A DNA stretch of 64,000 bases, taken from assembly GCA_016185545.1 (NCBI GenBank), contig JACPNJ010000001.1, forward strand, positions 22,565 through 86,564, written 5' to 3'. Position numbers and translations under genes: made by a program. Below the pieces are notes generated by a model that had not been told where the DNA came from, did no database searches, and saw only the letters and a program-made list of their open reading frames with translations. Positions 20,744-42,163 of the stretch are shown piece after piece. Origin of the DNA: Candidatus Yanofskybacteria bacterium (GTDB lineage: Bacteria; Patescibacteriota; Minisyncoccia; 2-02-FULL-40-12; IGHO2-01-FULL-4-A). How positions within the stretch are numbered: position 1 is the first letter of the stretch; each line of letters begins with the position of its first letter.

Positions 20744-21937
<1,194 letters not shown>

Positions 21938-22962: not shown

Positions 22963-23116
22963 ATTCAGCTTTTTCAAGTTTTTTATGCAAGATGTCTTGT
23001 CAGAATACCACACGCTATTGACACGCTATAGGTCTATATGCTAACCTATTTTTGATGCTAGGGAGTCTAAAAAGCTCCGGCAGGTTGATCTTTTACAATT
23101 GACTACGGAGGGGATA

Positions 23117-23794
23117 ATGAAAATAAAACATAATAGCGGAAGATATGAGTTAGTTGATAGAAATTCAAAAAAGTTTTGGGAAGCAACTTGGAAAGATAAA
23201 AAGGTAACCGTTCGCTTCGGGAGAATAGGAACGGTTGGACAAACTTTACGAAAAACTTTTTTTAATGACGTGTCTGCTAATAGTTATTTTCACGACAAAA
23301 TTGAGGAAAAATGTCGAAAAGGATATAAGCTTGTAGGCACTGCGACTTATCCTCAAAGTGATTCCAATTCCCTGGTAATCTGCCATTCATATGTTGGGGA
23401 GCATACTGAGGAGGTAGCCAAGGGATTATGTCGGTGGCTTACGAAATGTTTAAAGAAAAAAATGCCCGTCATAGAGTTCGAGAAGATTTGGATGGAATTC
23501 AGGGAAAACGATGAAGGAGCAAAAGCAGTTCCCGGCTTTACGATTGTATATGGAGAAAAAGAATACTGGTCAGATAATCTTGATTTTTCAGAAGACCTTG
23601 TTCTCGACAGTATATACAAAAAAGCCGTAGAGAAGGGGGCGGACAGGTTCATCACCTTCAACAGCAATGGTTTTACCGATATTGTGGCAATACGCGGAAA
23701 ACCGACGCCACGGGAAATTGCCACCTTGGTTCTGGGTTCAGAAGAAAATGCTAGATATCAGATCGAAGAAGACGTGACTGGTGTATTAAGTTAA
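23117..23794 (+). CDS. WGR-domain protein (hypothetical)
   Basis: N-terminal 'KFWEATWKDKKVTVRFGRIGTVGQTLRKTF' is a WGR signature (W-G-R with conserved spacing). GGAGGGG RBS before the ATG at 23117. C-terminal 150 aa are unassigned. Confidence 0.5.
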   Translation: MKIKHNSGRYELVDRNSKKFWEATWKDKKVTVRFGRIGTVGQTLRKTFFNDVSANSYFHDKIEEKCRKGYKLVGTATYPQSDSNSLVICHSYVGEHTEEVAKGLCRWLTKCLKKKMPVIEFEKIWMEFRENDEGAKAVPGFTIVYGEKEYWSDNLDFSEDLVLDSIYKKAVEKGADRFITFNSNGFTDIVAIRGKPTPREIATLVLGSEENARYQIEEDVTGVLS

Positions 23795-26356: not shown

Positions 26357-27160
26357 CTTAGAGGCTCAGCCTCTAAGTAACCAACAACTTACAATTTTTG
26401 CCGAGACACCTCGGCTTTTATTTTACTTTCGCCGCACAGGTTACTTAGAGGTTGAGCCTCTAAGTAACCTGTGCTATAAGTTTAATCTATGAGAAAACTT
26501 CAATTTGAAAATGGAGAGTTTTATCACATATACAACCGGGGCAACAATAAAAGGCCTATTTTTATGAAATCTTTTGATTTGCAGAGATTTTTGCAAAGTA
26601 TGATTGAATTCAATGTAGATGGACCAATCGGAAGTATTTATGCCGTTTCTTTCAACAAAGAATCACTTAGAGGCTCAGCCTCTAAGTCGAGACGACCAGT
26701 TGATATTGTTTGTTATTGCCTAAATCCTAACCATTTTCATCTTTTAGTTAGACAGTTGGAAAACGATGGAATTAAGAATTTTATGCATAAATTAGGAACT
26801 GGATATACAATGTATTTTAATAATAAACACGAATTGAACGGTGGACTTTTTCAGGGGAGATATAAAGCAATTCACATAGATACAAATGATTATCTGTTGT
26901 ATTTAAGCGCTTATATCAATTTAAATCCTGAAGCCCATCAACTTAGAGGCTCAGCCTCTAAGTTGTGCCAATCAAGTTGGAATGAATATATCGGTGATAA
27001 ATCTAGCAAGGGTAAATTGTGCAATACCAGGATTGTATTGTCGCAGTTTGAAACCGTGGAGGGTTATAAAAAATTTGCCGAAAAGGCGCTCGGGGTGATT
27101 ATAGAGAAAAAAGAGATGGAAGAATCCCTGAAGCTTTTACTTAGAGGCTGAGCCTCTAAG
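26357..27160. repeat. REP-like 21-bp palindrome CTTAGAGGCT(C/G)AGCCTCTAAG, five copies (26357-26377, 26444-26464, 26666-26686, 26942-26962, 27140-27160)
   Basis: Exact or 1-mismatch copies read from the sequence. Copies 3 and 4 lie in frame inside the RAYT ORF (LRGSASK). Copy 5 contains the ORF's TGA stop. Confidence 0.7.
26489..27151 (+). CDS. REP-associated tyrosine transposase (RAYT) / IS200-like HuH Y1 transposase
   Basis: 'GEFYHIYNRGNNKRPIF' N-terminal RAYT motif, HuH motif 'NHFHLLV' and catalytic tyrosine context 'GGLFQGRYKA'. Confidence 0.75.
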   Translation: MRKLQFENGEFYHIYNRGNNKRPIFMKSFDLQRFLQSMIEFNVDGPIGSIYAVSFNKESLRGSASKSRRPVDIVCYCLNPNHFHLLVRQLENDGIKNFMHKLGTGYTMYFNNKHELNGGLFQGRYKAIHIDTNDYLLYLSAYINLNPEAHQLRGSASKLCQSSWNEYIGDKSSKGKLCNTRIVLSQFETVEGYKKFAEKALGVIIEKKEMEESLKLLLRG

Positions 27161-28062: not shown

Positions 28063-28512
28063 ATGTCCGATATAGAACTGATCAAACAATTACGCGACTC
28101 TACCGGTCTTTCTTTTAATGAGATTAAACGTGCCTTGGACGAAGCCGATGGAGACAAATCGCGAGCACTGGAAGTGCTAAAAGCTCACGGTGTTAAAGTA
28201 GCCGAAAAGAAAGCATTGCGCGCAACCGGTCAGGGCAGGGTGGAGGCATACATCCATTCAAATAAAAAAGTCGGGGTTTTGGTGGAACTGTTGTGTGAGA
28301 CCGACTTTGTAGCGCACAATCCATTGTTTGGTGAATTGGCTCATGAAATAGCAATGCATGTCGCGGCAATGGATCCGAAAGACAATCGTGAATTATTGGG
28401 CCAGCCGTACATAAGGGATCAGGACATAACCATCGAACAGCTTATTACCCAACACATTGCTAAATTGGGCGAGAATATTAAAGTGGGGAAGTTTTGTAGG
28501 TTGCAGTTATAG
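28063..28512 (+). CDS. tsf: elongation factor Ts (short form)
   Basis: N-terminal UBA-like 'LIKQLRDSTGLSFNEIKRALDEADGDKSRALEVLK' and 'GVLVELLCETDFVA'. Directly follows rpsB as in the conserved rpsB-tsf operon. Confidence 0.8.
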   Translation: MSDIELIKQLRDSTGLSFNEIKRALDEADGDKSRALEVLKAHGVKVAEKKALRATGQGRVEAYIHSNKKVGVLVELLCETDFVAHNPLFGELAHEIAMHVAAMDPKDNRELLGQPYIRDQDITIEQLITQHIAKLGENIKVGKFCRLQL

Positions 28513-29272: not shown

Positions 29273-29290
29273 ATCAGTCGGCTAAAATAG

Positions 29291-29374
29291 GGGGTGTACT
29301 CAAGCAGTCAACGAGGGCAGACTGTAAATCTGCTGGCCTTGTGCCTACGTAGGTGCAAATCCTACCGCCCCCAC
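29291..29374 (+). tRNA. tRNA-Tyr (anticodon GTA), long variable arm
   Basis: Acceptor GGGGGTG/CGCCCCC, anticodon stem-loop GCAGA-CTGTAAA-TCTGC and a long variable arm. The T-loop TGCAAAT is atypical (G at position 55). Confidence 0.7.
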
Positions 29375-29526
29375 AATTAGAGCAAGCCAATTGATTGGCT
29401 TGCGGGTAGGATTTGCAGGGCGCAGCTATGTTTCGCGAGTATTTGGCGAGCGAAACAGCGAGCAGCGGCCTGCGACCGCGAGGCCGGAAGGCCGAGCGAG
29501 TCGTAGGACAATCCTACCGCCCCCAC
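29375..29526. repeat. GC-rich ~130-bp insert after tRNA-Tyr ending in a direct repeat of the tRNA-Tyr T-arm/acceptor 3' end
   Basis: 29494-29526 'GTAGGACAATCCTACCGCCCCCA' repeats tRNA 3' end 'GTAGGTGCAAATCCTACCGCCCCCA'. The insert starts with a perfect hairpin GCAAGCCAAT-TG-ATTGGCTTGC and an inverted copy GGGTAGGATTTGCA. Local GC is far above the genome background. Confidence 0.4.
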
Positions 29527-30080: not shown

Positions 30081-30104
30081 CTCGGCTTGCGCCGAGTTTT
30101 TGAT
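30081..30104 (+). terminator. rho-independent terminator after tRNA-Trp
   Basis: CTCGGC-TTGC-GCCGAG followed by TTTTT. Confidence 0.45.
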
Positions 30105-30107
30105 TTT

Positions 30108-30146
30108 AGTTGGCTCTTGCCAAAAGTTTTTTTAGTTGCTAGCATG
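30108..30146 (+). promoter_or_regulatory. putative sigma70-type promoter module TTGCCA-N17-TAGCAT, copy 1
   Basis: 31-nt block TTGCCAAAAGTTTTTTTAGTTGCTAGCATGA is nearly identical to 31470-31500, including the spacer. It lies upstream of the 30189 ORF. Confidence 0.35.
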
Positions 30147-30188
30147 AGTGCGGATGTATTTTTACAAATAAGAGAAGAGGAATCGGGT

Positions 30189-30413
30189 ATGACAGAAAAG
30201 TGGGACAGACGTTTTTTGGCGCTTGCTGAATTTGTCGCCCAATGGAGCAAAGATCCATCAACCAAAACCGGGGCCGTTATCGTTGATTCTAATAATAGAC
30301 TAGTATCCGTCGGATATAACGGTTTTCCGCGGGGCGTAAATGATTCGCCGGAGCGGTTAGAAAATCGCGAAATCAAAAACTGTTTTTCAACCTTGCGGGA
30401 GCAGGGTTTTTAA
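30189..30413 (+). pseudogene. dCMP/cytidine deaminase N-terminal fragment (truncated before the HAE / PCxxC zinc motifs)
   Basis: 'WDRRFLALAEFVAQWSKDPSTKTGAVIVDSNNRLVSVGYNGFPRGVND' matches the comEB/dCMP deaminase N-terminus. The ORF stops about 75 aa in, before the catalytic residues. Confidence 0.5.
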
Positions 30414-30460: not shown

Positions 30461-31444
30461 ATGCCCGAAGTTAATCTGGAACAAATAAAAAAAATTGCCG
30501 AATTCTTAAAAAACCTACCAGAGAATGGCGGTGGCCTAAACTTTTACAGTTTTCAAAAGGATGGCAAACAAATTGTTGCTTCCGATATGTACCCGCCGCT
30601 TAATCATCCGCAAGCGATTAACTTTTTCTTTTTTACTTGTATGCATCAATACGGGTTTTGGTATGGTGATAAATATGGTTATATTGAACCGCTTTTCGGA
30701 ACGATAAACGGCAAAAAGACCAAAGGCTCAGATTTGTTGTGGAAAGCGGCAATGCGAGCGTTTAATCAAGATGCCGAATGTTTTGAACCGAAAAAACTGG
30801 CTGTTGTTAGCCCGCATGATTTAGCCCGCACAATTTTAACTGATGACAACGGCACTATTCCGTTTCCTGATTTTGAAACTAGATTTCAACTGACGCGGGC
30901 TTACGGACTATGGTTTCAAGAAGCAAGTTCTAGAAATTCCCAAGAGTTAGTTCGGTTCAGCAATTGCAGTAAAAACTCATTACGCAAGTTTCTTGAAATA
31001 ATACGAGAAGTGCCGGGTTATAATAAAGATAAGCTTCAAAAGAAAAACCTGCTTCTTGCCATGGTTTTGGCCAATCGGCCGGAAAAGTTTTTGGAAGTGA
31101 AAGATCCATGGAACTGGCAGCCGATTGTTGATTACCACCTCATGAGATTGGCTTTGCGGCAAGGCCTGGTTGGCCTTGATGATCAGGAAAAGAAACAAAA
31201 CGAAGCAAGAAAATGGACGGATGCGGTGATCGAATCTTCAATTCGTGAAGCGGTTTTTGAGGCTATGGGGATTATTATAAAAGAATCGGGTAAATCCATG
31301 TCTTTTGTGGACGAGAAATTCTGGAATGGCCGACGCTATTGTCCGGAAACGGAAATACCCGATTGCCAAAGATGCTTGTTTAATTCTGTTTGCAAGAAGC
31401 GGATTGAACTTTTCCAGCCGATCTTTAGAACTACGGCGTATTGA
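30461..31444 (+). CDS. Qng1/DUF2419-like protein (candidate queuosine-salvage hydrolase) - tentative
   Basis: About 330 aa. The block 'AINFFFFTCMHQYGFWYG...GSDLLWKAAMRAF' recalls the 'VNWVFLVDLLNFSFWS...GYWALCAAVNRAL' region of Qng1/C9orf64 as I remember it; this is not an alignment. Cys-rich C-terminus. Confidence 0.3.
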   Translation: MPEVNLEQIKKIAEFLKNLPENGGGLNFYSFQKDGKQIVASDMYPPLNHPQAINFFFFTCMHQYGFWYGDKYGYIEPLFGTINGKKTKGSDLLWKAAMRAFNQDAECFEPKKLAVVSPHDLARTILTDDNGTIPFPDFETRFQLTRAYGLWFQEASSRNSQELVRFSNCSKNSLRKFLEIIREVPGYNKDKLQKKNLLLAMVLANRPEKFLEVKDPWNWQPIVDYHLMRLALRQGLVGLDDQEKKQNEARKWTDAVIESSIREAVFEAMGIIIKESGKSMSFVDEKFWNGRRYCPETEIPDCQRCLFNSVCKKRIELFQPIFRTTAY

Positions 31445-31469: not shown

Positions 31470-31500
31470 GTTGCCAAAATTTTTTAACTTGCTAGCATGA
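31470..31500 (+). promoter_or_regulatory. putative sigma70-type promoter module TTGCCA-N17-TAGCAT, copy 2
   Basis: TTGCCAAAATTTTTTAACTTGCTAGCATGA, followed by the AAAGGAG RBS and ATG of the 31539 gene. Confidence 0.35.
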
Positions 31501-31538
31501 ATTAAGGTGGTACATTAATAATAGAAAAGGAGCAGCTA

Positions 31539-33032
31539 ATGGCAAAATATGGCGAATGGCCAGATAATTTGGAAACGAGATTAAAAAAACACTGGAAGGA
31601 CGCGAAGAATAATCGTGATGAATTTAAAAAATTAGTCTTGGAAGATAAGGTTTTAATGAAGCAAAAAAGCTGGAATGCTTGCCGGCTGAAAGCAGGATTT
31701 CTCAGTTTTTTTAAAAATGCCAAACCATCACAAAAGAAATACCCATTTTCTCAACTTGAAGAAACCAAAAAACAAGAACTTCTTAAACTTCTTGCCGATG
31801 GCAATGTGGGATGGACAGAAGTTTTTCAGAAATTTCCCGGATTTTCTGAATTACAATTCAAGAATTTTGCCAAAAACCAAAGCACAGGCGTAAATAAAAA
31901 GAAAAAAGAAATTTCTCCGGAAGAATTCAAAAAAAATGTTGGCAAGTATACTGATCGGGCGCTTAAGTTTTTGCGTGAATTCGGACCGGCAAATGCCGAT
32001 AAAATTTCTGACGAAATAGAGATAAGCGCGCAAATGGTTTTTCGCGTAGTTGAGGAACTGGCCCGCCGCGGTTATCAGGTAGTCAAAGATCCCGACGGCA
32101 GATTTCGTCTTTCTACTTCTGAAGCCAAAACGGTCGCGACAGAGCACCACTGGCGTCCGACCACTAGAATTTTAATTTGGAGTGGCGCGGAACTGGGCGG
32201 TATCGGACAACAAGCCGATCTTCTTAAGACTGTCTATCATACTATTGTCCCGGAAGAAAAACCGGATTTTGTAATAGCGCTCGGCAATGTTATAGTTGGC
32301 AATTTGTCAGCGGTCAAGCGAAACGAAACATTTTTAGAATTAGAACAAGAGTACGAAGAAGACTATAAGAAAAAGAAAAAAATTTCCGAGTTGCTTTATC
32401 AAGCTCAAATTGATTATATCTTAAATGTTATCGGTGATGAGGCTATGACTTGTTTGCCCAGCCACAGATGCAATACCTATTTCATCAGCGGTCTAAAAGA
32501 ACAATCGTTTATTAAGCAAGGGTTTGAAGACCCGCTTGAAAATATTTGCGATCAGAGACGAGAATTAAAAGGCGCCAAACATCAAGACTGGTTTTATTTT
32601 GGCAGAAATATGCACATGTTCAGGATTATTAATACCGGTAAGCCAGTCGGGGTGCTCGCACTTACCTCAAAGAAAAATCCTTTTCGCGGTGCTTATACCC
32701 GCGGTTACAGACCACGCAAAACATCAACTTCTATTGCTGGTTGGCTTATTAATACCTTGCGTACCAAGGGAGTCAATGACTACCCGCGGGTAATTATTTG
32801 GACAGACGGTGTTGGCGTTTATACCGCGCTAGGTGATAGCGAAGCGTCTACATTTATAAGCTTACCCAAACTTGCTGTTACCGATCCGACTGAACTTGAA
32901 CTGGATACGCCGCCTAATTTGGGTTGTGTAATCGTTGACCTCACGTTTAATGAACATGGTGAACTCAAGCAGAATGGGATAGAGTGGAAATTCAGAAATT
33001 TAGCGCCCTACATAAACGAGCGAGGGTATTAA
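31539..33032 (+). CDS. hypothetical protein with wHTH-like segment and degenerate metallophosphoesterase-like motifs
   Basis: AAAGGAG RBS. 'ISDEIEISAQMVFRVVEELARRGYQVV' is winged-helix-like. 'ILIWSGAELGG...(25 aa)...DFVIALGNVIVGN' has the spacing of MPE motifs I and II, but the catalytic residues are substituted. Confidence 0.35.
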   Translation: MAKYGEWPDNLETRLKKHWKDAKNNRDEFKKLVLEDKVLMKQKSWNACRLKAGFLSFFKNAKPSQKKYPFSQLEETKKQELLKLLADGNVGWTEVFQKFPGFSELQFKNFAKNQSTGVNKKKKEISPEEFKKNVGKYTDRALKFLREFGPANADKISDEIEISAQMVFRVVEELARRGYQVVKDPDGRFRLSTSEAKTVATEHHWRPTTRILIWSGAELGGIGQQADLLKTVYHTIVPEEKPDFVIALGNVIVGNLSAVKRNETFLELEQEYEEDYKKKKKISELLYQAQIDYILNVIGDEAMTCLPSHRCNTYFISGLKEQSFIKQGFEDPLENICDQRRELKGAKHQDWFYFGRNMHMFRIINTGKPVGVLALTSKKNPFRGAYTRGYRPRKTSTSIAGWLINTLRTKGVNDYPRVIIWTDGVGVYTALGDSEASTFISLPKLAVTDPTELELDTPPNLGCVIVDLTFNEHGELKQNGIEWKFRNLAPYINERGY

Positions 33033-33033
33033 C

Positions 33034-34149
33034 GTGAAAAAAATAAATGGTAATCATGAGCTTGCTTCAAAAATACTGGATACGCTAAATAAGAGATCGG
33101 CAAAGCTTGGTGAACTGGAAAGAGCATTTAATCAAAGTAAAAACGCCATAGTATTAGCTATTGATTTTCTTAAACAAAAGGGCCACAAAATTGTATTTAA
33201 ACCGGTAAGCGGTATGTATTTTTTGGAACATGCCACAAGGACCAAGTTTGAAGCGATTCCAAAAGAAATATTATATTCCGGACCAACCATTAGAAAATTA
33301 GGGATGAGCGAAACCCATTTCGGTGGCCGGCATTCTCAGCCGCATTTTATTGTTGCGCTTTGGGTCGCGATCAAAAGCGGCGAATTCGGTAAAATAGACC
33401 TCATTACGCACTATGGTGATGTTTTTAACGGTTTAAAGCATGCCGACTATAGCCGTGGCGGCAATATTTTGAATGGTGTAGACACACAGATGCGCCTTGG
33501 AATTATTGCAATGTCTTGTTTTGAAGGAATGCCGGTTTATATAAGGCCGGGCGATCATGATATGTGGCAGCATACAACCGCCGGTGTTAATATGGTTGCC
33601 AATCTGGTGGAAAAACTTAACTTGATGAGAAAAGCAGAAAACAAAGAACAGAACTTCAATTATGTAAGTTCAGACAATAACGACCAAATAGAATTCAACA
33701 ATTTCATATTTGAGTTTAAACACATTATGTCGGCGCAGTCCCGAGGGTTAACAACCAAAGCCCAATATATGTTTGAAGATAGAATGGGAGATTTTGTTAA
33801 GTCATTAAGAGGCAATGGCGTGTCAAAAAACACGGCTCAGCCGCATCACATAGGATTTGGTAATTGGCACAGAGAGATTAGTTTTTTTCATGGCGGGACA
33901 GCCATGGATCTTTATCCTGGTTTTCAGGAATCAACTGATTGGGAAAAAAACATGGGCATTGTTCACAAATTTGGCGCCAAAGTAGTAACCCTTGGTAAAG
34001 ATAAAAATGGAAATATTTTCCGATACGATGTTCGCTATATTGACTTTACCGATATAATTGAAAAAATTACCGGCCACGATTTGGATGACGCGCTGCTGAA
34101 TCTTGCCCTCCGAGCATTTAATAAATGGAAGAAAAAGTTGGGGGTATAA
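33034..34149 (+). CDS. hypothetical wHTH + calcineurin-like metallophosphoesterase-like protein
   Basis: 1-nt spacing from the upstream ORF. The N-terminus is wHTH-like. Candidate MPE motifs: 'ETHFGG' (I), 'HYGDVFNG' (II), 'PGDHDMW' (III), 'GNWHRE', 'FHGG'. Confidence 0.35.
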   Translation: MKKINGNHELASKILDTLNKRSAKLGELERAFNQSKNAIVLAIDFLKQKGHKIVFKPVSGMYFLEHATRTKFEAIPKEILYSGPTIRKLGMSETHFGGRHSQPHFIVALWVAIKSGEFGKIDLITHYGDVFNGLKHADYSRGGNILNGVDTQMRLGIIAMSCFEGMPVYIRPGDHDMWQHTTAGVNMVANLVEKLNLMRKAENKEQNFNYVSSDNNDQIEFNNFIFEFKHIMSAQSRGLTTKAQYMFEDRMGDFVKSLRGNGVSKNTAQPHHIGFGNWHREISFFHGGTAMDLYPGFQESTDWEKNMGIVHKFGAKVVTLGKDKNGNIFRYDVRYIDFTDIIEKITGHDLDDALLNLALRAFNKWKKKLGV

Positions 34150-34219
34150 ATAATTATTTTAAAAACAAAAGCCGAGATTAACTCGGTTTTTTATATTATT
34201 TCAAAAAAATAGAATAAAA

Positions 34220-34471
34220 TTATAATACTTCGATTTTAAGTTTGCGAGGTTCGTTTGGCGGGATTTTTTTAACGGTAGAACGAAGATCAGCCCGGTTAGT
34301 TTCAATTCCTTTCATTAGAAATTCAACATCTTCAATTTTGTAAACGCGGTAGTTATTCACGGGGTTGCGGTGGGCAACAAGAGCGCCTTTTTTGTCCCAG
34401 TTACGGACCGTCAAAGGCGTTACGCCGAATATTTTAGCAACCTCATTTACGGTTAGATATTTTTTAGGCAC
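34220..34471 (-). CDS. excisionase/MerR-type helix-turn-helix DNA-binding protein
   Basis: 'LTVNEVAKIFGVTPLTVRNWDKKG' is a classic HTH_17 / Xis-family motif. Confidence 0.6.
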   Translation of the reverse strand: MPKKYLTVNEVAKIFGVTPLTVRNWDKKGALVAHRNPVNNYRVYKIEDVEFLMKGIETNRADLRSTVKKIPPNEPRKLKIEVL

Positions 34472-40120: not shown

Positions 40121-42163
40121 TTACTTGAGTGTCCAGATTTTGTTGTCCGTGGATAGAATCCAAACCGTGCCGTCGGAGGAGACGGATATATCTTGAGGTG
40201 TGCCGACAGCTTCTAGTTTATAAGTTGTTTTAAGTTCGCCTGTTGTTTTATCAAAAATATAAACTCTTTTGTTTGTCTTATCGGCCAGAAAGAGGAAAGC
40301 CGAGTCCTTGAAAGTGAAAATGCGGCTGTCTGACGCAGGAATAAGCCGCAAATCCAATTCGCCGGTTTTTTTGCCCTTAAAGTATAATATCAGTTTGCCA
40401 TTGTCCGCAAGCGCGTAAATATTGCCGTCAGCGGTTATGGATGTCAGATTACCGCTTGCATTGTCGCTGGTCCAGATTGTACGCTTCGTTCCGCCAGTTA
40501 CTGCGTCGGCATATTTATATATTGTTTTATCGGAAAGAATATAAAGATTATTTTCGTATAAGATAGCGTCTATAGCGGATACCGGTTCTTTAAGAGTGTA
40601 CTGCTCAATTTTTTTGGATTTCAAATCATAGATGCCGAAGGCGTCAGAACCGTTGAAGACGGAGGCAAATGATGATGAAGTATATAGAAATTGTGGTGTA
40701 ATCTTGAATTGGCCTAACTGTGAAACTTCATTTTGATTGACATTGAAAATTAGGCCAATAATATCGATTATGCTGATAAGACCGTCATAAGCTGACACGA
40801 AACTAACCTTGAGATTGCTGTTTTGAGCCGATATGTCCGCGAAAAGCGTTGGTTGTTTATCGCTAACGCGATCAAGGTCATCCAAAGTTTGATTTATTTG
40901 TAATTTAATATTTTCGGCTTTTTTGTCTGAAAAACTGGCTAAACTTGCCAAGGATGCCTGAAGCAGTGTCCGAGCGTCTTTAAAATTGCTTTGGTTAAGC
41001 CATGATTGCGCCAGTTTAACATTTTCGCCTGCTTGTTTTATGGTGTTCCTGTTTTCATTTGAAATTCCTCCGGTTTTCCATAAAACAAAAATTAAAACGG
41101 GAAAAATAATGATCGCGGAAACTAGAATAAAACCACGCCGGCGCGCGCGTTCTCCCAATTTGCCAGTAGAAATCAGTTTACGGAGACCTTTTATAACCGG
41201 AGTTAAAATCGTTTCTCTTTTACTTACTAAAAATTCAGCGGGTATAATACGTGATTGTTCCATTTCTGGACTTTCCGGGCCGGTTCCTTGGTCCGCGACC
41301 GTAATTTCGGGTATTTGATCAGGGACATCTTGGGGTTTGCCGCTATTCAGTCTGATTTGAGACGGTTGTTTTGTATTCTGAGACTCTAGCGGAGCTTCCG
41401 GCTCCGTTTCCTTTTCCTTGTTGTCGTTTGGTGTCCTAGTTTTAAAAGTTGATTTGGTATAAGTTGCTGATGATACGGGTATTTCTTTAACCTCATGCAT
41501 ATCTATATGAACACCGCAGCAGGAAAAATTAGTTGTATTGGTAGCCAAATGTGCTATTTTTTGGCCAAATTCTTCCTGGTTTTCCTTGATGAAAATTCCA
41601 TTAAGTTGTTTTTCCCTTGATGTCAGCGACCTTGATGGAAAGTAAGCGAATATTTTGTCTTTTGACTGAACTTTACCGGAAATAATATTTGAAAACTGCT
41701 TTTCGCCCTCGGCATCCTTACTGAATAATTCAACATTATTGAGTATGTCTATATATTTACCGTTGCGAGCCAAGGCAATTTTGAATTTACCCAAACGCGA
41801 AATGTAAATATTTTCGCCTGAAATTGCGGCCAAGCCGATATTCAGTTTAAAATTATTGTTTTGGAAAAAATCATCCAAAACCTCATTAAGCTTTTTTAGA
41901 GTGCGCTCGAAAGCGCTTTTAGCATTTTGTTCCCGTAACGATATGTCTGAATAATATTCTCTTTTTGCCAAAGACGAAATTAAACTTATCGTGTAAGAAA
42001 GATCCTCTTGAGAATATTTGATGTGGCCCAAAACAAAGAGCGAGCCAAGCATTTTTTCCTGATTCCCGGCGCCTTGATATGCTAAAACATCAAAATGAAC
42101 ATTATCCTCGCCGCTTTTGTAGATAAGCTCTTTGATAGCAGGTTTTAAAGTAATTTTTTCCAT
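40121..42163 (-). CDS. membrane-anchored hypothetical protein with C-terminal beta-propeller-like repeats
   Basis: Cytoplasmic about 330-aa N-terminal domain, one TM helix ('FILVSAIIIFPVLIFVLW') and a C-terminal region of repeated 'DG.IY.L.D.K.I' strands (PQQ/WD-like). Confidence 0.4.
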   Translation of the reverse strand: MEKITLKPAIKELIYKSGEDNVHFDVLAYQGAGNQEKMLGSLFVLGHIKYSQEDLSYTISLISSLAKREYYSDISLREQNAKSAFERTLKKLNEVLDDFFQNNNFKLNIGLAAISGENIYISRLGKFKIALARNGKYIDILNNVELFSKDAEGEKQFSNIISGKVQSKDKIFAYFPSRSLTSREKQLNGIFIKENQEEFGQKIAHLATNTTNFSCCGVHIDMHEVKEIPVSSATYTKSTFKTRTPNDNKEKETEPEAPLESQNTKQPSQIRLNSGKPQDVPDQIPEITVADQGTGPESPEMEQSRIIPAEFLVSKRETILTPVIKGLRKLISTGKLGERARRRGFILVSAIIIFPVLIFVLWKTGGISNENRNTIKQAGENVKLAQSWLNQSNFKDARTLLQASLASLASFSDKKAENIKLQINQTLDDLDRVSDKQPTLFADISAQNSNLKVSFVSAYDGLISIIDIIGLIFNVNQNEVSQLGQFKITPQFLYTSSSFASVFNGSDAFGIYDLKSKKIEQYTLKEPVSAIDAILYENNLYILSDKTIYKYADAVTGGTKRTIWTSDNASGNLTSITADGNIYALADNGKLILYFKGKKTGELDLRLIPASDSRIFTFKDSAFLFLADKTNKRVYIFDKTTGELKTTYKLEAVGTPQDISVSSDGTVWILSTDNKIWTLK

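What the first reader, a model, noticed from the sequence alone, without database searches (positions are those of the whole stretch)
31539..34149. Adjacent wHTH-containing hypothetical proteins, one with calcineurin-like phosphoesterase motifs and one with the same spacing but substituted catalytic residues
ORF 33034-34149 carries candidate metallophosphoesterase motifs in canonical order: ETHFGG ... HYGDVFNG ... PGDHDMW ... GNWHRE ... FHGG. The upstream ORF (1-nt gap) has 'ILIWSGAELGG' followed 25 aa later by 'DFVIALGNVIVGN'. That is the Mre11/SbcD spacing of motifs I and II, but with D/H replaced, which suggests a pseudo-enzyme partner. Both have an N-proximal winged-helix-like segment. The pair is driven by a promoter module duplicated upstream of the deaminase/Qng1 genes. 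This could be an uncharacterised nuclease/phosphoesterase two-component module, possibly defence-related.
Basis: inference. Interest (0 to 1): 0.6.

Follow-up and report, generated by a model that had tools for sequence, protein, structure and literature searches.

The report
Live/dead DP1-like phosphoesterase gene pair
Two back-to-back genes in a tiny-genome (CPR/Patescibacteria) bacterium encode sister proteins, each a DNA-binding winged helix joined to a metallophosphoesterase domain, one with an intact active site and one dead; their closest solved relative is the archaeal DNA-polymerase proofreading subunit DP1, which suggests an undescribed DNA-nuclease heterodimer rather than a defence system.

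Summary

The pair is adjacent in every orthologous locus examined. It is fused into one chain in a close homolog. It is the split form of a wider Patescibacteria family of tandem proteins: 51 of the 147 listed hits not already in hand, each with a degenerate N-module and, where the alignment reaches, a canonical C-module. The family profile matches archaeal PolD DP1 far better (E 3e-15) than MJ0936, Mre11 or SbcD (6e-5 to 2e-3). Single-module relatives sit in phage-like replication modules.

Neighbours are housekeeping genes. There is no SbcC/Rad50 partner and no defence-system match.

Best reading: an A·B heterodimer with one active site acting as a DNA phosphodiesterase or nuclease. Function is inferred, not shown. 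It is a new architectural variant of a known enzyme kind, of moderate interest.

The parts
31471..31498 (+). Promoter of the A-B operon: -35 TTGCCA, 16-nt A/T-rich spacer, extended -10 TGcTAGCAT
   Evidence: Consensus scan. The orthologous locus L014 has TTGCTA-N-TGCTAGTAT at the same place. A second copy lies at 30117-30145.
31527..31533 (+). Ribosome-binding site (AAGGAG) about 6 nt before the ATG of A
   Evidence: Read directly from the sequence.
31539..33032 (+). ORF A, 497 aa: catalytically dead wHTH-MPE paralog (pseudoenzyme subunit)
31539..31913 (+). A residues 1-125: helical N-terminal extension, variable or absent in most orthologs
   Evidence: Alignment A2 shows it only in a subset of homologs. 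The AF2 model is helical with high pLDDT. No family match.
31917..32114 (+). A residues ~127-192: winged helix-turn-helix
32151..33029 (+). A residues ~205-497: MPE-fold domain with all eight metal/catalytic positions replaced (G216, E218, N250, L319, K320, A374, V427, T429). Contains an invariant basic loop S377-K-K-N-P-F-R-G-A-Y-T-R-G-Y-R-P-R-K-T395.
33034..34149 (+). ORF B, 371 aa, GTG start 1 nt after A's stop: wHTH-MPE with an intact di-metal site
33043..33231 (+). B residues ~4-66: winged helix-turn-helix (HTH_11/ArsR-like)
33283..34053 (+). B residues ~84-340: MPE catalytic domain. Motif I S92-E93-T-H95; II G128-D129; III G173-D174-H175-D176; IV H230; V G276-N277-W-H279. Also a DP1-like Q298-E-S-T301-D-W-E-K segment and a conserved loop S234-A-Q-S-R-G-L-T-T-K.
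   Evidence: Invariant in 19/19 homologs. Aligned to DP1 motifs by profile search.
34167..34191 (+). Intrinsic-terminator-like hairpin plus T-run ending the operon. It reads on both strands and is shared with the convergent MerR/HTH_17 gene at 34220-34471 (-).
   Evidence: Terminator scan. Sequence.
30117..30145 (+). Second copy of the same promoter, upstream of the truncated deaminase-like ORF and the Qng1-like gene. It is related by sequence but is not part of the A-B unit.

Best explanation
A and B are the two halves of one enzyme: a heterodimer of paralogous wHTH-metallophosphoesterase subunits.

B carries the only functional di-metal centre. Its ligand set is E93/H95, D129, D174/H175, H230 and N277/H279. 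A keeps the fold, the winged helix and a conserved basic loop, but has lost every metal ligand. It would serve as the structural and nucleic-acid-binding partner.

The two genes are made together from one sigma-70-type promoter by translational coupling. The complex most likely hydrolyses phosphodiester bonds in DNA, as an exo- or endonuclease in replication, repair or recombination, in the manner of PolD DP1 and Mre11/SbcD. The two winged helices would hold the DNA.

It is the split form of a vertically inherited Patescibacteria protein that is usually a single chain, with a dead N-module followed by a live C-module.

Shown: gene structure, paralogy, folds, the live/dead residue pattern, fusion and adjacency, DP1 as the closest solved relative, and housekeeping context.

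Inferred: physical heterodimerisation, DNA as substrate, and nuclease activity.
For: Paralogy over wHTH plus the whole MPE domain: hhalign 95.6%, E 1.1e-8, 313 columns.

Live/dead pattern: B's eight catalytic positions are invariant in 19/19 homologs. A's equivalents are G, E, N, L, K/R, A, V and T.

Obligate partnership:
- Adjacent with a 0-1 nt gap in L001-L004, L012 and L014.
- P0035 is a natural A+B fusion inside the same clade.
- 51 of the 147 listed hits that were not already in hand are tandem proteins. Their N-modules lack the canonical motif set, and their C-modules are canonical wherever the alignment covers the sites.

Nuclease clade:
- The family profile hits PolD DP1 at E 2.8e-15, against MJ0936 6e-5, Mre11 7e-4 and SbcD 2e-3.
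- The DP1 signal is graded with profile breadth: 0.27, then 3e-4, then 3e-9.
- Relatives hit phrog_7339 'DNA repair exonuclease'.
- BFVD structural hits include phage 'DNA polymerase II small subunit' and SbcD.
- Single-module relatives lie beside PolA+UDG, RecA, DnaB and an intein-bearing helicase.
- One phage homolog carries an intein.

Experimental precedent for DP1/Mre11-like phage MPEs acting on DNA: PMC11795197 and PMC12287305.

Established knowledge: Mre11 and SbcD work as dimers.
Against: - No biochemical data exist for any member.
- The window's own B clade matches DP1 only marginally by sequence (E 0.27). The link is transitive, through the superfamily.
- B's site is non-canonical: D to E in motif I, N to D in motif III, H to N in motif V. 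Altered metal or substrate specificity, or even loss of activity, cannot be excluded, although strict conservation argues for function.
- No nuclease partner (SbcC/Rad50, DP2) and no replication or repair gene is consistently adjacent. Neighbours are translation, tRNA and cell-wall genes.
- wHTH-plus-enzyme-like architectures are also typical of metabolite-sensing transcription factors.
Confidence: 0.45

Rival explanations
1. A·B is a heterodimeric one-component transcription factor. The two winged helices bind an operator. The MPE domains act as a ligand sensor or ligand-degrading module, for example for a nucleotide second messenger, as BirA, NiaR, NadR and PurR couple an HTH to an enzyme-like domain.
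For: - The wHTHs are of the HTH_11, MarR, TrmB and ArsR types that dominate transcription regulators.
- IMG names relatives 'biotin operon repressor/predicted phosphodiesterase'.
- A live/dead pair with two HTHs would suit a pseudo-palindromic operator.
Against: - The only candidate operator, TGCTAGCA over the -10, is not conserved in the ortholog L014 (TGCTAGTA). It is absent upstream of A in L001, L004 and L012.
- The closest relatives of the MPE domain are nucleases and DP1, not cNMP phosphodiesterases.
- Single-module relatives sit inside phage-like replication modules, and one carries an intein.
Confidence: 0.15
2. The complex is an RNA-directed phosphoesterase, for example tRNA/rRNA end healing (2',3'-cyclic phosphodiesterase or 3'-phosphatase, like the MPE domain of bacterial Pnkp) or an RNA-processing nuclease.
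For: Recurrent neighbours are RNA and translation genes:
- tRNA genes, L33 and a Qng1-like queuosine-salvage gene lie directly upstream in the window, L004 and L012.
- Two lineages have CCA-adding enzyme, fusion, RluD-like pseudouridine synthase, kinase, L19, with TrmD and KhpA nearby.

Some MPEs (Pnkp phosphatase domain, Dbr1, YmdB) act on RNA. This last point is from my own knowledge and was not tested here.
Against: - Patescibacteria genomes are small and dense in translation genes, so such neighbours are expected by default.
- Synteny differs between lineages: PCMT-MltG in three, DnaK/DnaJ in one.
- No sequence or fold match favours RNA-acting MPEs over DP1, Mre11 or SbcD.
Confidence: 0.15
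3. The pair is an anti-phage defence or other mobile-element module.
For: Relatives occur on phage-like contigs. Nuclease plus HTH is a common defence theme.
Against: - PADLOC hits involve only the wHTH, at weak E-values.
- The B clade was not found in IMG/VR.
- The locus is syntenic with core genes across Yanofskybacteria, Terrybacteria and other Patescibacteria.
- No integrase, toxin or other defence gene is adjacent. GC content is unremarkable.
Confidence: 0.03
4. B is also inactive, and the pair is a purely structural or DNA-binding complex, as eukaryotic polymerase B-subunits are.
For: Three ligand positions deviate from the canon: E for D, D for N, and N for H. Pfam Metallophos does not reach threshold on B itself.
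Against: - The substitutions are to residues that can still ligate metals.
- All eight positions are invariant across the clade (19/19).
- The nearest outgroups keep D, N or H at these sites. That is the signature of a maintained active site.
Confidence: 0.1

Closest known systems
Archaeal PolD small subunit DP1 (3'-5' proofreading exonuclease; PDB 5ihe, 6knb, 6t8h, 8ppt)
   Same: - Shared motif context: SD-x-H-x-GS, GDvvDG, GNHD, GH-x-H, and the downstream Q-x-Q-T-x-F-Q-K / Q-E-S-T-D-W-E-K segment.
   Different: - No OB-fold domain; a winged helix sits in its place.
- No DP2 partner: this is a bacterial genome, and no ORF over 923 aa exists in the window.
- The family works as a live/dead paralog pair or tandem.
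- PF04042 is not matched.
- The window's B clade alone matches DP1 only at E 0.27.
Eukaryotic DNA polymerase B-subunits (Pol alpha B, Pol delta p50, Pol epsilon p59): inactivated MPE domains
   Different: No detectable sequence relationship to A was shown. B-subunits have an OB fold and bind the polymerase C-terminal zinc-finger domain. A's partner appears to be its own active paralog.
Mre11 / SbcD nucleases
   Different: No Rad50/SbcC ATPase gene is adjacent in any locus. The wHTH is N-terminal rather than a C-terminal capping or Rad50-binding domain. The pair is a heterodimer with one dead subunit.
Phage DP1/Mre11-like metallophosphoesterases (Bxb1 gp47 RDF; mycobacteriophage A10ZJ24 gp48)
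   Same: These are small MPEs in phage replication modules. They are needed for phage DNA replication and have nuclease activity on DNA (PMC11795197, PMC12287305). Single-module relatives of B have the same genomic setting.
   Different: Bxb1 gp47 scores only 2.3 bits against the superfamily profile, so it is a different MPE family. It has no wHTH and no dead partner.
MJ0936 / YfcE-type small phosphodiesterases (Metallophos_2)
   Different: Those are single-domain homo-oligomeric enzymes of unknown physiological substrate. They have no wHTH and no live/dead pairing. The sequence match is much weaker than to DP1 (E 6e-5).

Membership tests
Calcineurin-like metallophosphoesterase superfamily (PF00149 clan) | Four-layer beta-alpha-beta-alpha-beta sandwich MPE fold | tested here: met
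   [not shown]
Calcineurin-like metallophosphoesterase superfamily (PF00149 clan) | Five ordered motifs: D-x-H / GD / GNH[DE] / H / GH-x-H | tested here: met
   B has E93-x-H95, G128-D129, G173-D174-H175-D176, H230 and G276-N277-x-H279. All are invariant, with three conservative ligand substitutions. A has all eight positions replaced, so A is a member by fold and descent only.
Calcineurin-like metallophosphoesterase superfamily (PF00149 clan) | Pfam Metallophos / Metallophos_2 score above the gathering threshold | tested here: not met
   Neither window protein matches, even at E<=10. At E<=0.1, 20 of 24 aligned family members match Metallophos, and several relatives pass the cut-off. Membership therefore rests on homology through relatives plus fold.
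Calcineurin-like metallophosphoesterase superfamily (PF00149 clan) | Metal-dependent phosphoester hydrolysis | not testable with these tools
   Requires biochemistry.
PolD DP1 / polymerase B-subunit family (PF04042) | MPE domain specifically closest to DP1 by sequence | tested here: inconclusive
   Superfamily profile against the PDB: DP1 E 2.8e-15, next-best MPE 6e-5. The B clade alone gives E 0.27; clade plus outgroups gives 3e-4. No phylogeny was done.
PolD DP1 / polymerase B-subunit family (PF04042) | OB-fold domain preceding the phosphoesterase domain | tested here: not met
   [not shown]
PolD DP1 / polymerase B-subunit family (PF04042) | Partner catalytic subunit (DP2, or PolB with a C-terminal Zn-finger domain) encoded in the genome | tested here: not met
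   No such gene is in the 64-kb window. The largest ORFs are class II RNR, a P-type ATPase, DnaK and others. None is in related loci. The whole genome was not available.
PolD DP1 / polymerase B-subunit family (PF04042) | Match to the Pfam family model PF04042 | tested here: not met
   PF04042 is absent from all Pfam outputs.
Mre11 / SbcD | Adjacent or co-operonic Rad50/SbcC ABC-ATPase | tested here: not met
   None in the window or in loci L001-L006, L015, L016, L018 and L019.
Mre11 / SbcD | Nuclease-type MPE domain followed by a capping domain | tested here: inconclusive
   [not shown]
Known anti-phage defence systems (PADLOC-DB 2.0) | Match to a defence-system protein model and location among defence genes | tested here: not met
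   Only wHTH segments hit Csa3, CasR or CARF-HTH models, weakly. Neighbours are housekeeping genes.
wHTH one-component transcription regulators (HTH_11/MarR/TrmB) | Winged-helix DNA-binding domain | tested here: met
wHTH one-component transcription regulators (HTH_11/MarR/TrmB) | Conserved operator (inverted repeat) in its own or target promoters | tested here: not met
   The TGCTAGCA palindrome over the -10 is not conserved in L014. It is absent upstream of A in L001, L004 and L012.

The most novel reading that the evidence does not exclude
Patescibacteria encode a bacterial branch of the DP1 / polymerase B-subunit lineage, which has been considered archaeal and eukaryotic. The A·B pair or tandem would be a polymerase-associated proofreading or processing exonuclease. 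It would have independently repeated the active-to-inactive subunit transition seen between archaeal DP1 and eukaryotic B-subunits. If so, it bears on where the DP1 phosphoesterase came from, and on how reduced-genome bacteria edit or repair DNA.
Probability: 0.1. Interest if true: 0.8.

Novelty: new variant of a known kind. Interest (0 to 1): 0.5.

Why it matters
The calcineurin-like phosphoesterase fold and its nuclease members (DP1, Mre11/SbcD) are well known. A wHTH-fused version that always comes as a dead module followed by a live one has not been described in the literature I could search. It occurs fused or split, it is vertically inherited in Patescibacteria, and it lies closest to the archaeal PolD proofreading subunit.

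If the inference is right, three things follow:
- It would give a function to a conserved 'hypothetical' locus in an uncultivated, reduced-genome radiation.
- It would add a bacterial example of pseudoenzyme/enzyme heterodimerisation in the MPE superfamily.
- It would provide an outgroup for the evolution of DP1 and eukaryotic polymerase B-subunits.

If B turns out to act on small molecules or RNA, the pair is still a clean case for studying how a dead paralog is retained as an obligate partner.

Tried and rejected
1. Operator hypothesis. The perfect palindrome TGCTAGCA in both promoter copies occurs 4 times in the window against 0.63 expected. It is TGCTAGTA in the ortholog L014 and absent in L001, L004 and L012. 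I rejected it as an operator; it is part of an extended -10.

2. Defence system. PADLOC and context are both negative (and the context calls).

3. SbcC/Rad50 partner. Large ORFs across the window and all sizeable ORFs near the pair were annotated, and none qualifies. The 680-aa ORF at 40121-42163 (-) has no Pfam match, so it is not formally excluded.

4. Membership in the Bxb1 gp47 phage MPE family. The score is 2.3 bits, so rejected.

5. Direct family assignment of A and B by Pfam, NCBIfam, PHROGs and single-sequence PDB search gave nothing significant. The clade-only profile against the PDB found only wHTH hits.

6. The first hhalign of A1 against A2 was dominated by the fused homolog P0035. 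I redid it with the fusion trimmed.

With A5 it found only 2 GTDB species representatives and no IMG/VR contig. The single protein P0087 found nothing in IMG/VR.

9. The third word-indexed homolog search with A4 added no new taxa.

10. Rfam found nothing around the operon except tRNAs.

Full report
**1. What is in the sequence**

The window comes from a Candidatus Yanofskybacteria (Parcubacteria/CPR) genome. ORF A is 100% identical to the NCBI entry 'MAG: hypothetical protein HYX20_00300 [Candidatus Yanofskybacteria bacterium]'.

ORF A runs from 31539 to 33032 (ATG, 497 aa). ORF B runs from 33034 to 34149 (GTG, 371 aa). They lie on the + strand with a single base between A's TAA and B's GTG, and a GAGG-type ribosome-binding site sits inside the end of A. 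That is the layout of translational coupling.

Upstream is a sigma-70-type promoter at 31471-31498: TTGCCA, a 16-nt A/T-rich spacer, and an extended -10 TGcTAGCAT. An AAGGAG ribosome-binding site follows. Downstream is a hairpin plus T-run at 34167-34191. It is shared with a convergent small MerR/HTH_17 gene at 34220-34471.

**2.

All quoted peptide strings are present at the stated places.

In an alignment of 19 B homologs down to 45% identity, the candidate metal and catalytic residues are invariant: E93 (D in one sequence), H95, D129, D174, H175, D176, H230, N277 and H279.

- 'FHGG' is clade-specific and is not an MPE motif.

A's 'ILIWSGAELGG' and 'DFVIALGNVIVGN' align with B's motifs I and II in a profile-profile comparison.

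The promoter duplication is real. 30117-30147 and 31471-31500 share the -35, the spacer character and TTGCTAGCATGA. That 12-mer, allowing one mismatch, occurs three times in the window (two exact) against 0.25 expected.

**3. Both proteins are wHTH + metallophosphoesterase, and they are paralogs**

Curated libraries give nothing significant for either protein. Pfam, NCBIfam, PHROGs and single-sequence PDB searches return only weak wHTH signals.

AF2 models built on the family alignments reach pLDDT 75 for both proteins.

After I removed a fused homolog that had confounded the first attempt, hhalign of the two family alignments gave 95.6% probability, E 1.1e-8, over 313 columns. That span covers the wHTH and the entire MPE domain.

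In that register, supported by the strand positions of the models and by the N-modules of fused relatives, A's equivalents of B's eight catalytic positions are G216, E218, N250, L319, K/R320, A374, V427 and T429. These are conserved as such in the A family.

Both families keep a conserved, low-confidence loop after motif IV. In B it is S-A-Q-S-R-G-L-T-T-K. In A it is S-K-K-N-P-F-R-G-A-Y-T-R-G-Y-R-P-R-K-T. It is basic in A and is a candidate nucleic-acid contact; that is inference.

**4. The two genes are an obligate pair**

A and B orthologs are adjacent, with a 0-1 nt gap, in every locus fetched: L001-L004, L012 and L014.

One homolog from the same clade, P0035 (784 aa), is a natural A+B fusion joined by a short linker.

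**5. It is the split form of a wider family**

An exhaustive HMMER search with the B profile found 284 cluster representatives at E<=1e-3 and 94 at E<=1e-10.

I classified the 147 listed hits that were not already in hand with A and B profiles. 51 are 650-880-aa tandem proteins (A-like module followed by B-like module). The rest are mostly single-module proteins of about 400 aa, together with fragments and shorter generic MPEs.

A residue census gave a consistent pattern wherever the alignment reached:
- N-modules are degenerate: typically S-D-x-G, then G-N. The motif I His, the motif II Asp and the motif III Asn-His are mostly lost.
- C-modules and single-module proteins are canonical: S-D-H, GD, [NS]H[DE], H, [HN]H.

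Many of these relatives pass Pfam Metallophos thresholds. At E<=0.1, 20 of 24 aligned members match Metallophos and 12 of 24 match HTH_11.

Named sources are Ca. Terrybacteria, Ca. Magasanikbacteria, 'Patescibacteria group bacterium' and one MAG labelled Omnitrophota.

The split Yanofskybacteria-type B clade is very narrow. It was found in 2 of about 185,000 GTDB species representatives by pattern plus tblastn, and in no IMG/VR contig.

**6. Closest characterised relative**

A profile of 24 diverse B-type modules (A4) was searched against all PDB sequences:

| Target | E-value |
|---|---|
| PolD DP1, six distinct entries | 2.8e-15 to 1.3e-12 |
| MJ0936 | 6e-5 |
| Mre11 | 7e-4 |
| SbcD | 2e-3 |

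The DP1 match comes in two stretches. One covers motifs I-III. The other covers motif V plus the following Q-x-Q-T-x-F-Q-K segment, which in B reads Q298-E-S-T301-D-W-E-K.

The signal scales with profile breadth: E 0.27 for the B clade alone, 3e-4 with nearest outgroups, and 3e-9 for the superfamily on the motif I-III fragment alone. The DP1 link for the window protein is therefore transitive but coherent.

PF04042 is not matched, there is no OB fold, and no DP2 is encoded. The family is thus not a DP1 ortholog.

The characterised phage MPE Bxb1 gp47 is not a member, scoring 2.3 bits.

**7. Genomic context**

The window around the pair reads as follows: RF, TGT, a WGR protein, an IS200-like gene, S2, EF-Ts, tRNAs, L33, tRNA-Trp, a truncated deaminase-like ORF, a Qng1-like gene, A, B, MerR (-), a TPR membrane protein, MltG, L10, then RsmH, PBP2 and Mur ligase.

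Other lineages:
- Pair or fusion, then (Lon/AAA), PCMT, MltG in L004, L005/6 and L015.
- CCA-adding enzyme, fusion, RluD-like, kinase, L19 in L016 and L019.
- HrcA, GrpE, DnaK, DnaJ, fusion, RNase H (-) in L018.

Nothing resembles a defence island. PADLOC matches only the HTH. No SbcC/Rad50 gene is nearby.

Single-module canonical relatives have a different setting. They lie in phage-like replication or DNA-metabolism modules:
- L010: UDG-PolA, RecA, methyltransferases, SMC_N.
- L011: intein-bearing helicase, DnaB, QueC, GCHY-1.

One relative, P0113, sits on a contig with an integrase and YopX. It carries an intein inside the MPE domain: its residues ~335-678 match intein-bearing terminases and methyltransferases in phages.

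Relatives hit phrog_7339 'DNA repair exonuclease'. BFVD structural neighbours include phage 'DNA polymerase II small subunit', SbcD and metallophosphatases.

**8. Mechanism proposed**

My best reading (confidence 0.45) is that A and B are made stoichiometrically by translational coupling and form a pseudo-symmetric heterodimer, like the Mre11/SbcD dimer, with one live di-metal site in B.

In B the metal-2 ligand set {Asp, Asn, His, His} has become {Asp129, Asp174, His230, Asn277}, and the motif I Asp is Glu. These changes keep ligating chemistry and are strictly conserved. A dead A subunit, two winged helices and the basic loops would hold nucleic acid.

DNA is the most likely substrate, for these reasons:
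- the DP1, Mre11 and SbcD affinities of the domain;
- the replication-module setting of the phage-like relatives;
- the intein in one homolog;
- published evidence that phage DP1/Mre11-like MPEs act on DNA and are needed for replication (PMC11795197, PMC12287305).

Heterodimerisation, substrate and activity are all inferences.

Rivals are a heterodimeric transcription factor with an enzyme-like sensor (0.15), an RNA-end or RNA-processing phosphoesterase suggested by tRNA and RNA-modification neighbours (0.15), a purely structural complex (0.10), and a defence module (0.03).

**9. Novelty and score**

The fold and chemistry are known. The architecture is not described in the literature I could search: wHTH-MPE in an obligatory dead/live pair or tandem, vertically inherited in Patescibacteria, and closest to archaeal DP1. 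PolD is described there as exclusively archaeal (PMC10721889 abstract).

I rate it a new variant of a known kind, with interest 0.5.

The most novel reading not excluded is a bacterial branch of the DP1/B-subunit lineage acting with a polymerase. I give it a probability of about 0.1, and it would be of high interest if true.

Noticed in passing
window 30087-30413 (+); likely ATG at 30189: A short ORF resembling the N-terminal part of a dCMP/CMP deaminase ('GAVIVDSNNRLVSVGYNGFPRG...'). It ends before the zinc-binding HAE/PCxxC motifs, so it is probably a gene fragment or pseudogene. It is driven by the duplicated promoter copy at 30117-30145. It is absent from L012, where A-B directly follows tRNA-Trp.
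   Followed up: partly
window 30461-31444 (+) and 20744-21931 (-): A Qng1-like gene (Pfam Q_salvage E 4.7e-5, below threshold) lies immediately upstream of A, and also in L004 and L014. A tRNA-guanine transglycosylase (TGT) gene lies 10 kb away. Together they suggest a queuosine-salvage capability in this reduced genome.
   Followed up: no
window 29358-29374 and 29510-29526: An exact 17-nt direct repeat (AATCCTACCGCCCCCAC) duplicates the 3' end of tRNA-Tyr. It flanks a ~150-nt G+C-rich insert that is absent from L012. It looks like the scar of an element integrated at the tRNA 3' end.
   Followed up: partly
L012 4050-4234: In the related genome, tRNA-Tyr is interrupted by a group I intron (Rfam RF00028, 53.7 bits). 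The window's tRNA-Tyr (29290-29374) has no intron.
   Followed up: partly
L007 8001-10163 (protein P0113): A phage-borne wHTH-MPE homolog carries an intein with a LAGLIDADG domain (residues ~335-678) inserted in its MPE domain. The intein part matches inteins in phage terminases, methyltransferases and nucleotidyltransferases.
   Followed up: partly
window 26489-27151 (+): An IS200-like Y1 transposase ORF (Pfam Y1_Tnp, E 8e-8) lies just upstream of rpsB.
   Followed up: no
window 40121-42163 (-): A 680-aa ORF with no Pfam match at E<=0.01, located between the L10 region and the dcw (RsmH, PBP2, Mur ligase) cluster.
   Followed up: no
window 28063-28512 (+): EF-Ts is only 149 aa, against 192 aa in L004, so the elongation factor is truncated or minimal.
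   Followed up: no
L001 6090-6830: A 740-nt gene-free stretch lies upstream of the A ortholog, with no Rfam hit. Just before the gene, a 14-nt perfect inverted repeat (TTTAATAAACTTGC ... GCAAGTTTATTAAA) brackets a TATACT -10-like box.
   Followed up: no
window 31539-31913 (A residues 1-125): A confidently modelled all-helical N-terminal extension with regularly spaced tryptophans. It is present in only some A orthologs and in some tandem fusions (for example the P0075 and P0060 N-termini). It matches no family, and its nature (possibly an extra HTH-type domain) was not resolved.
   Followed up: no
window 23099-23794 (+): A WGR-domain protein (Pfam E 1.3e-13), of unknown role in this genome.
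   Followed up: no
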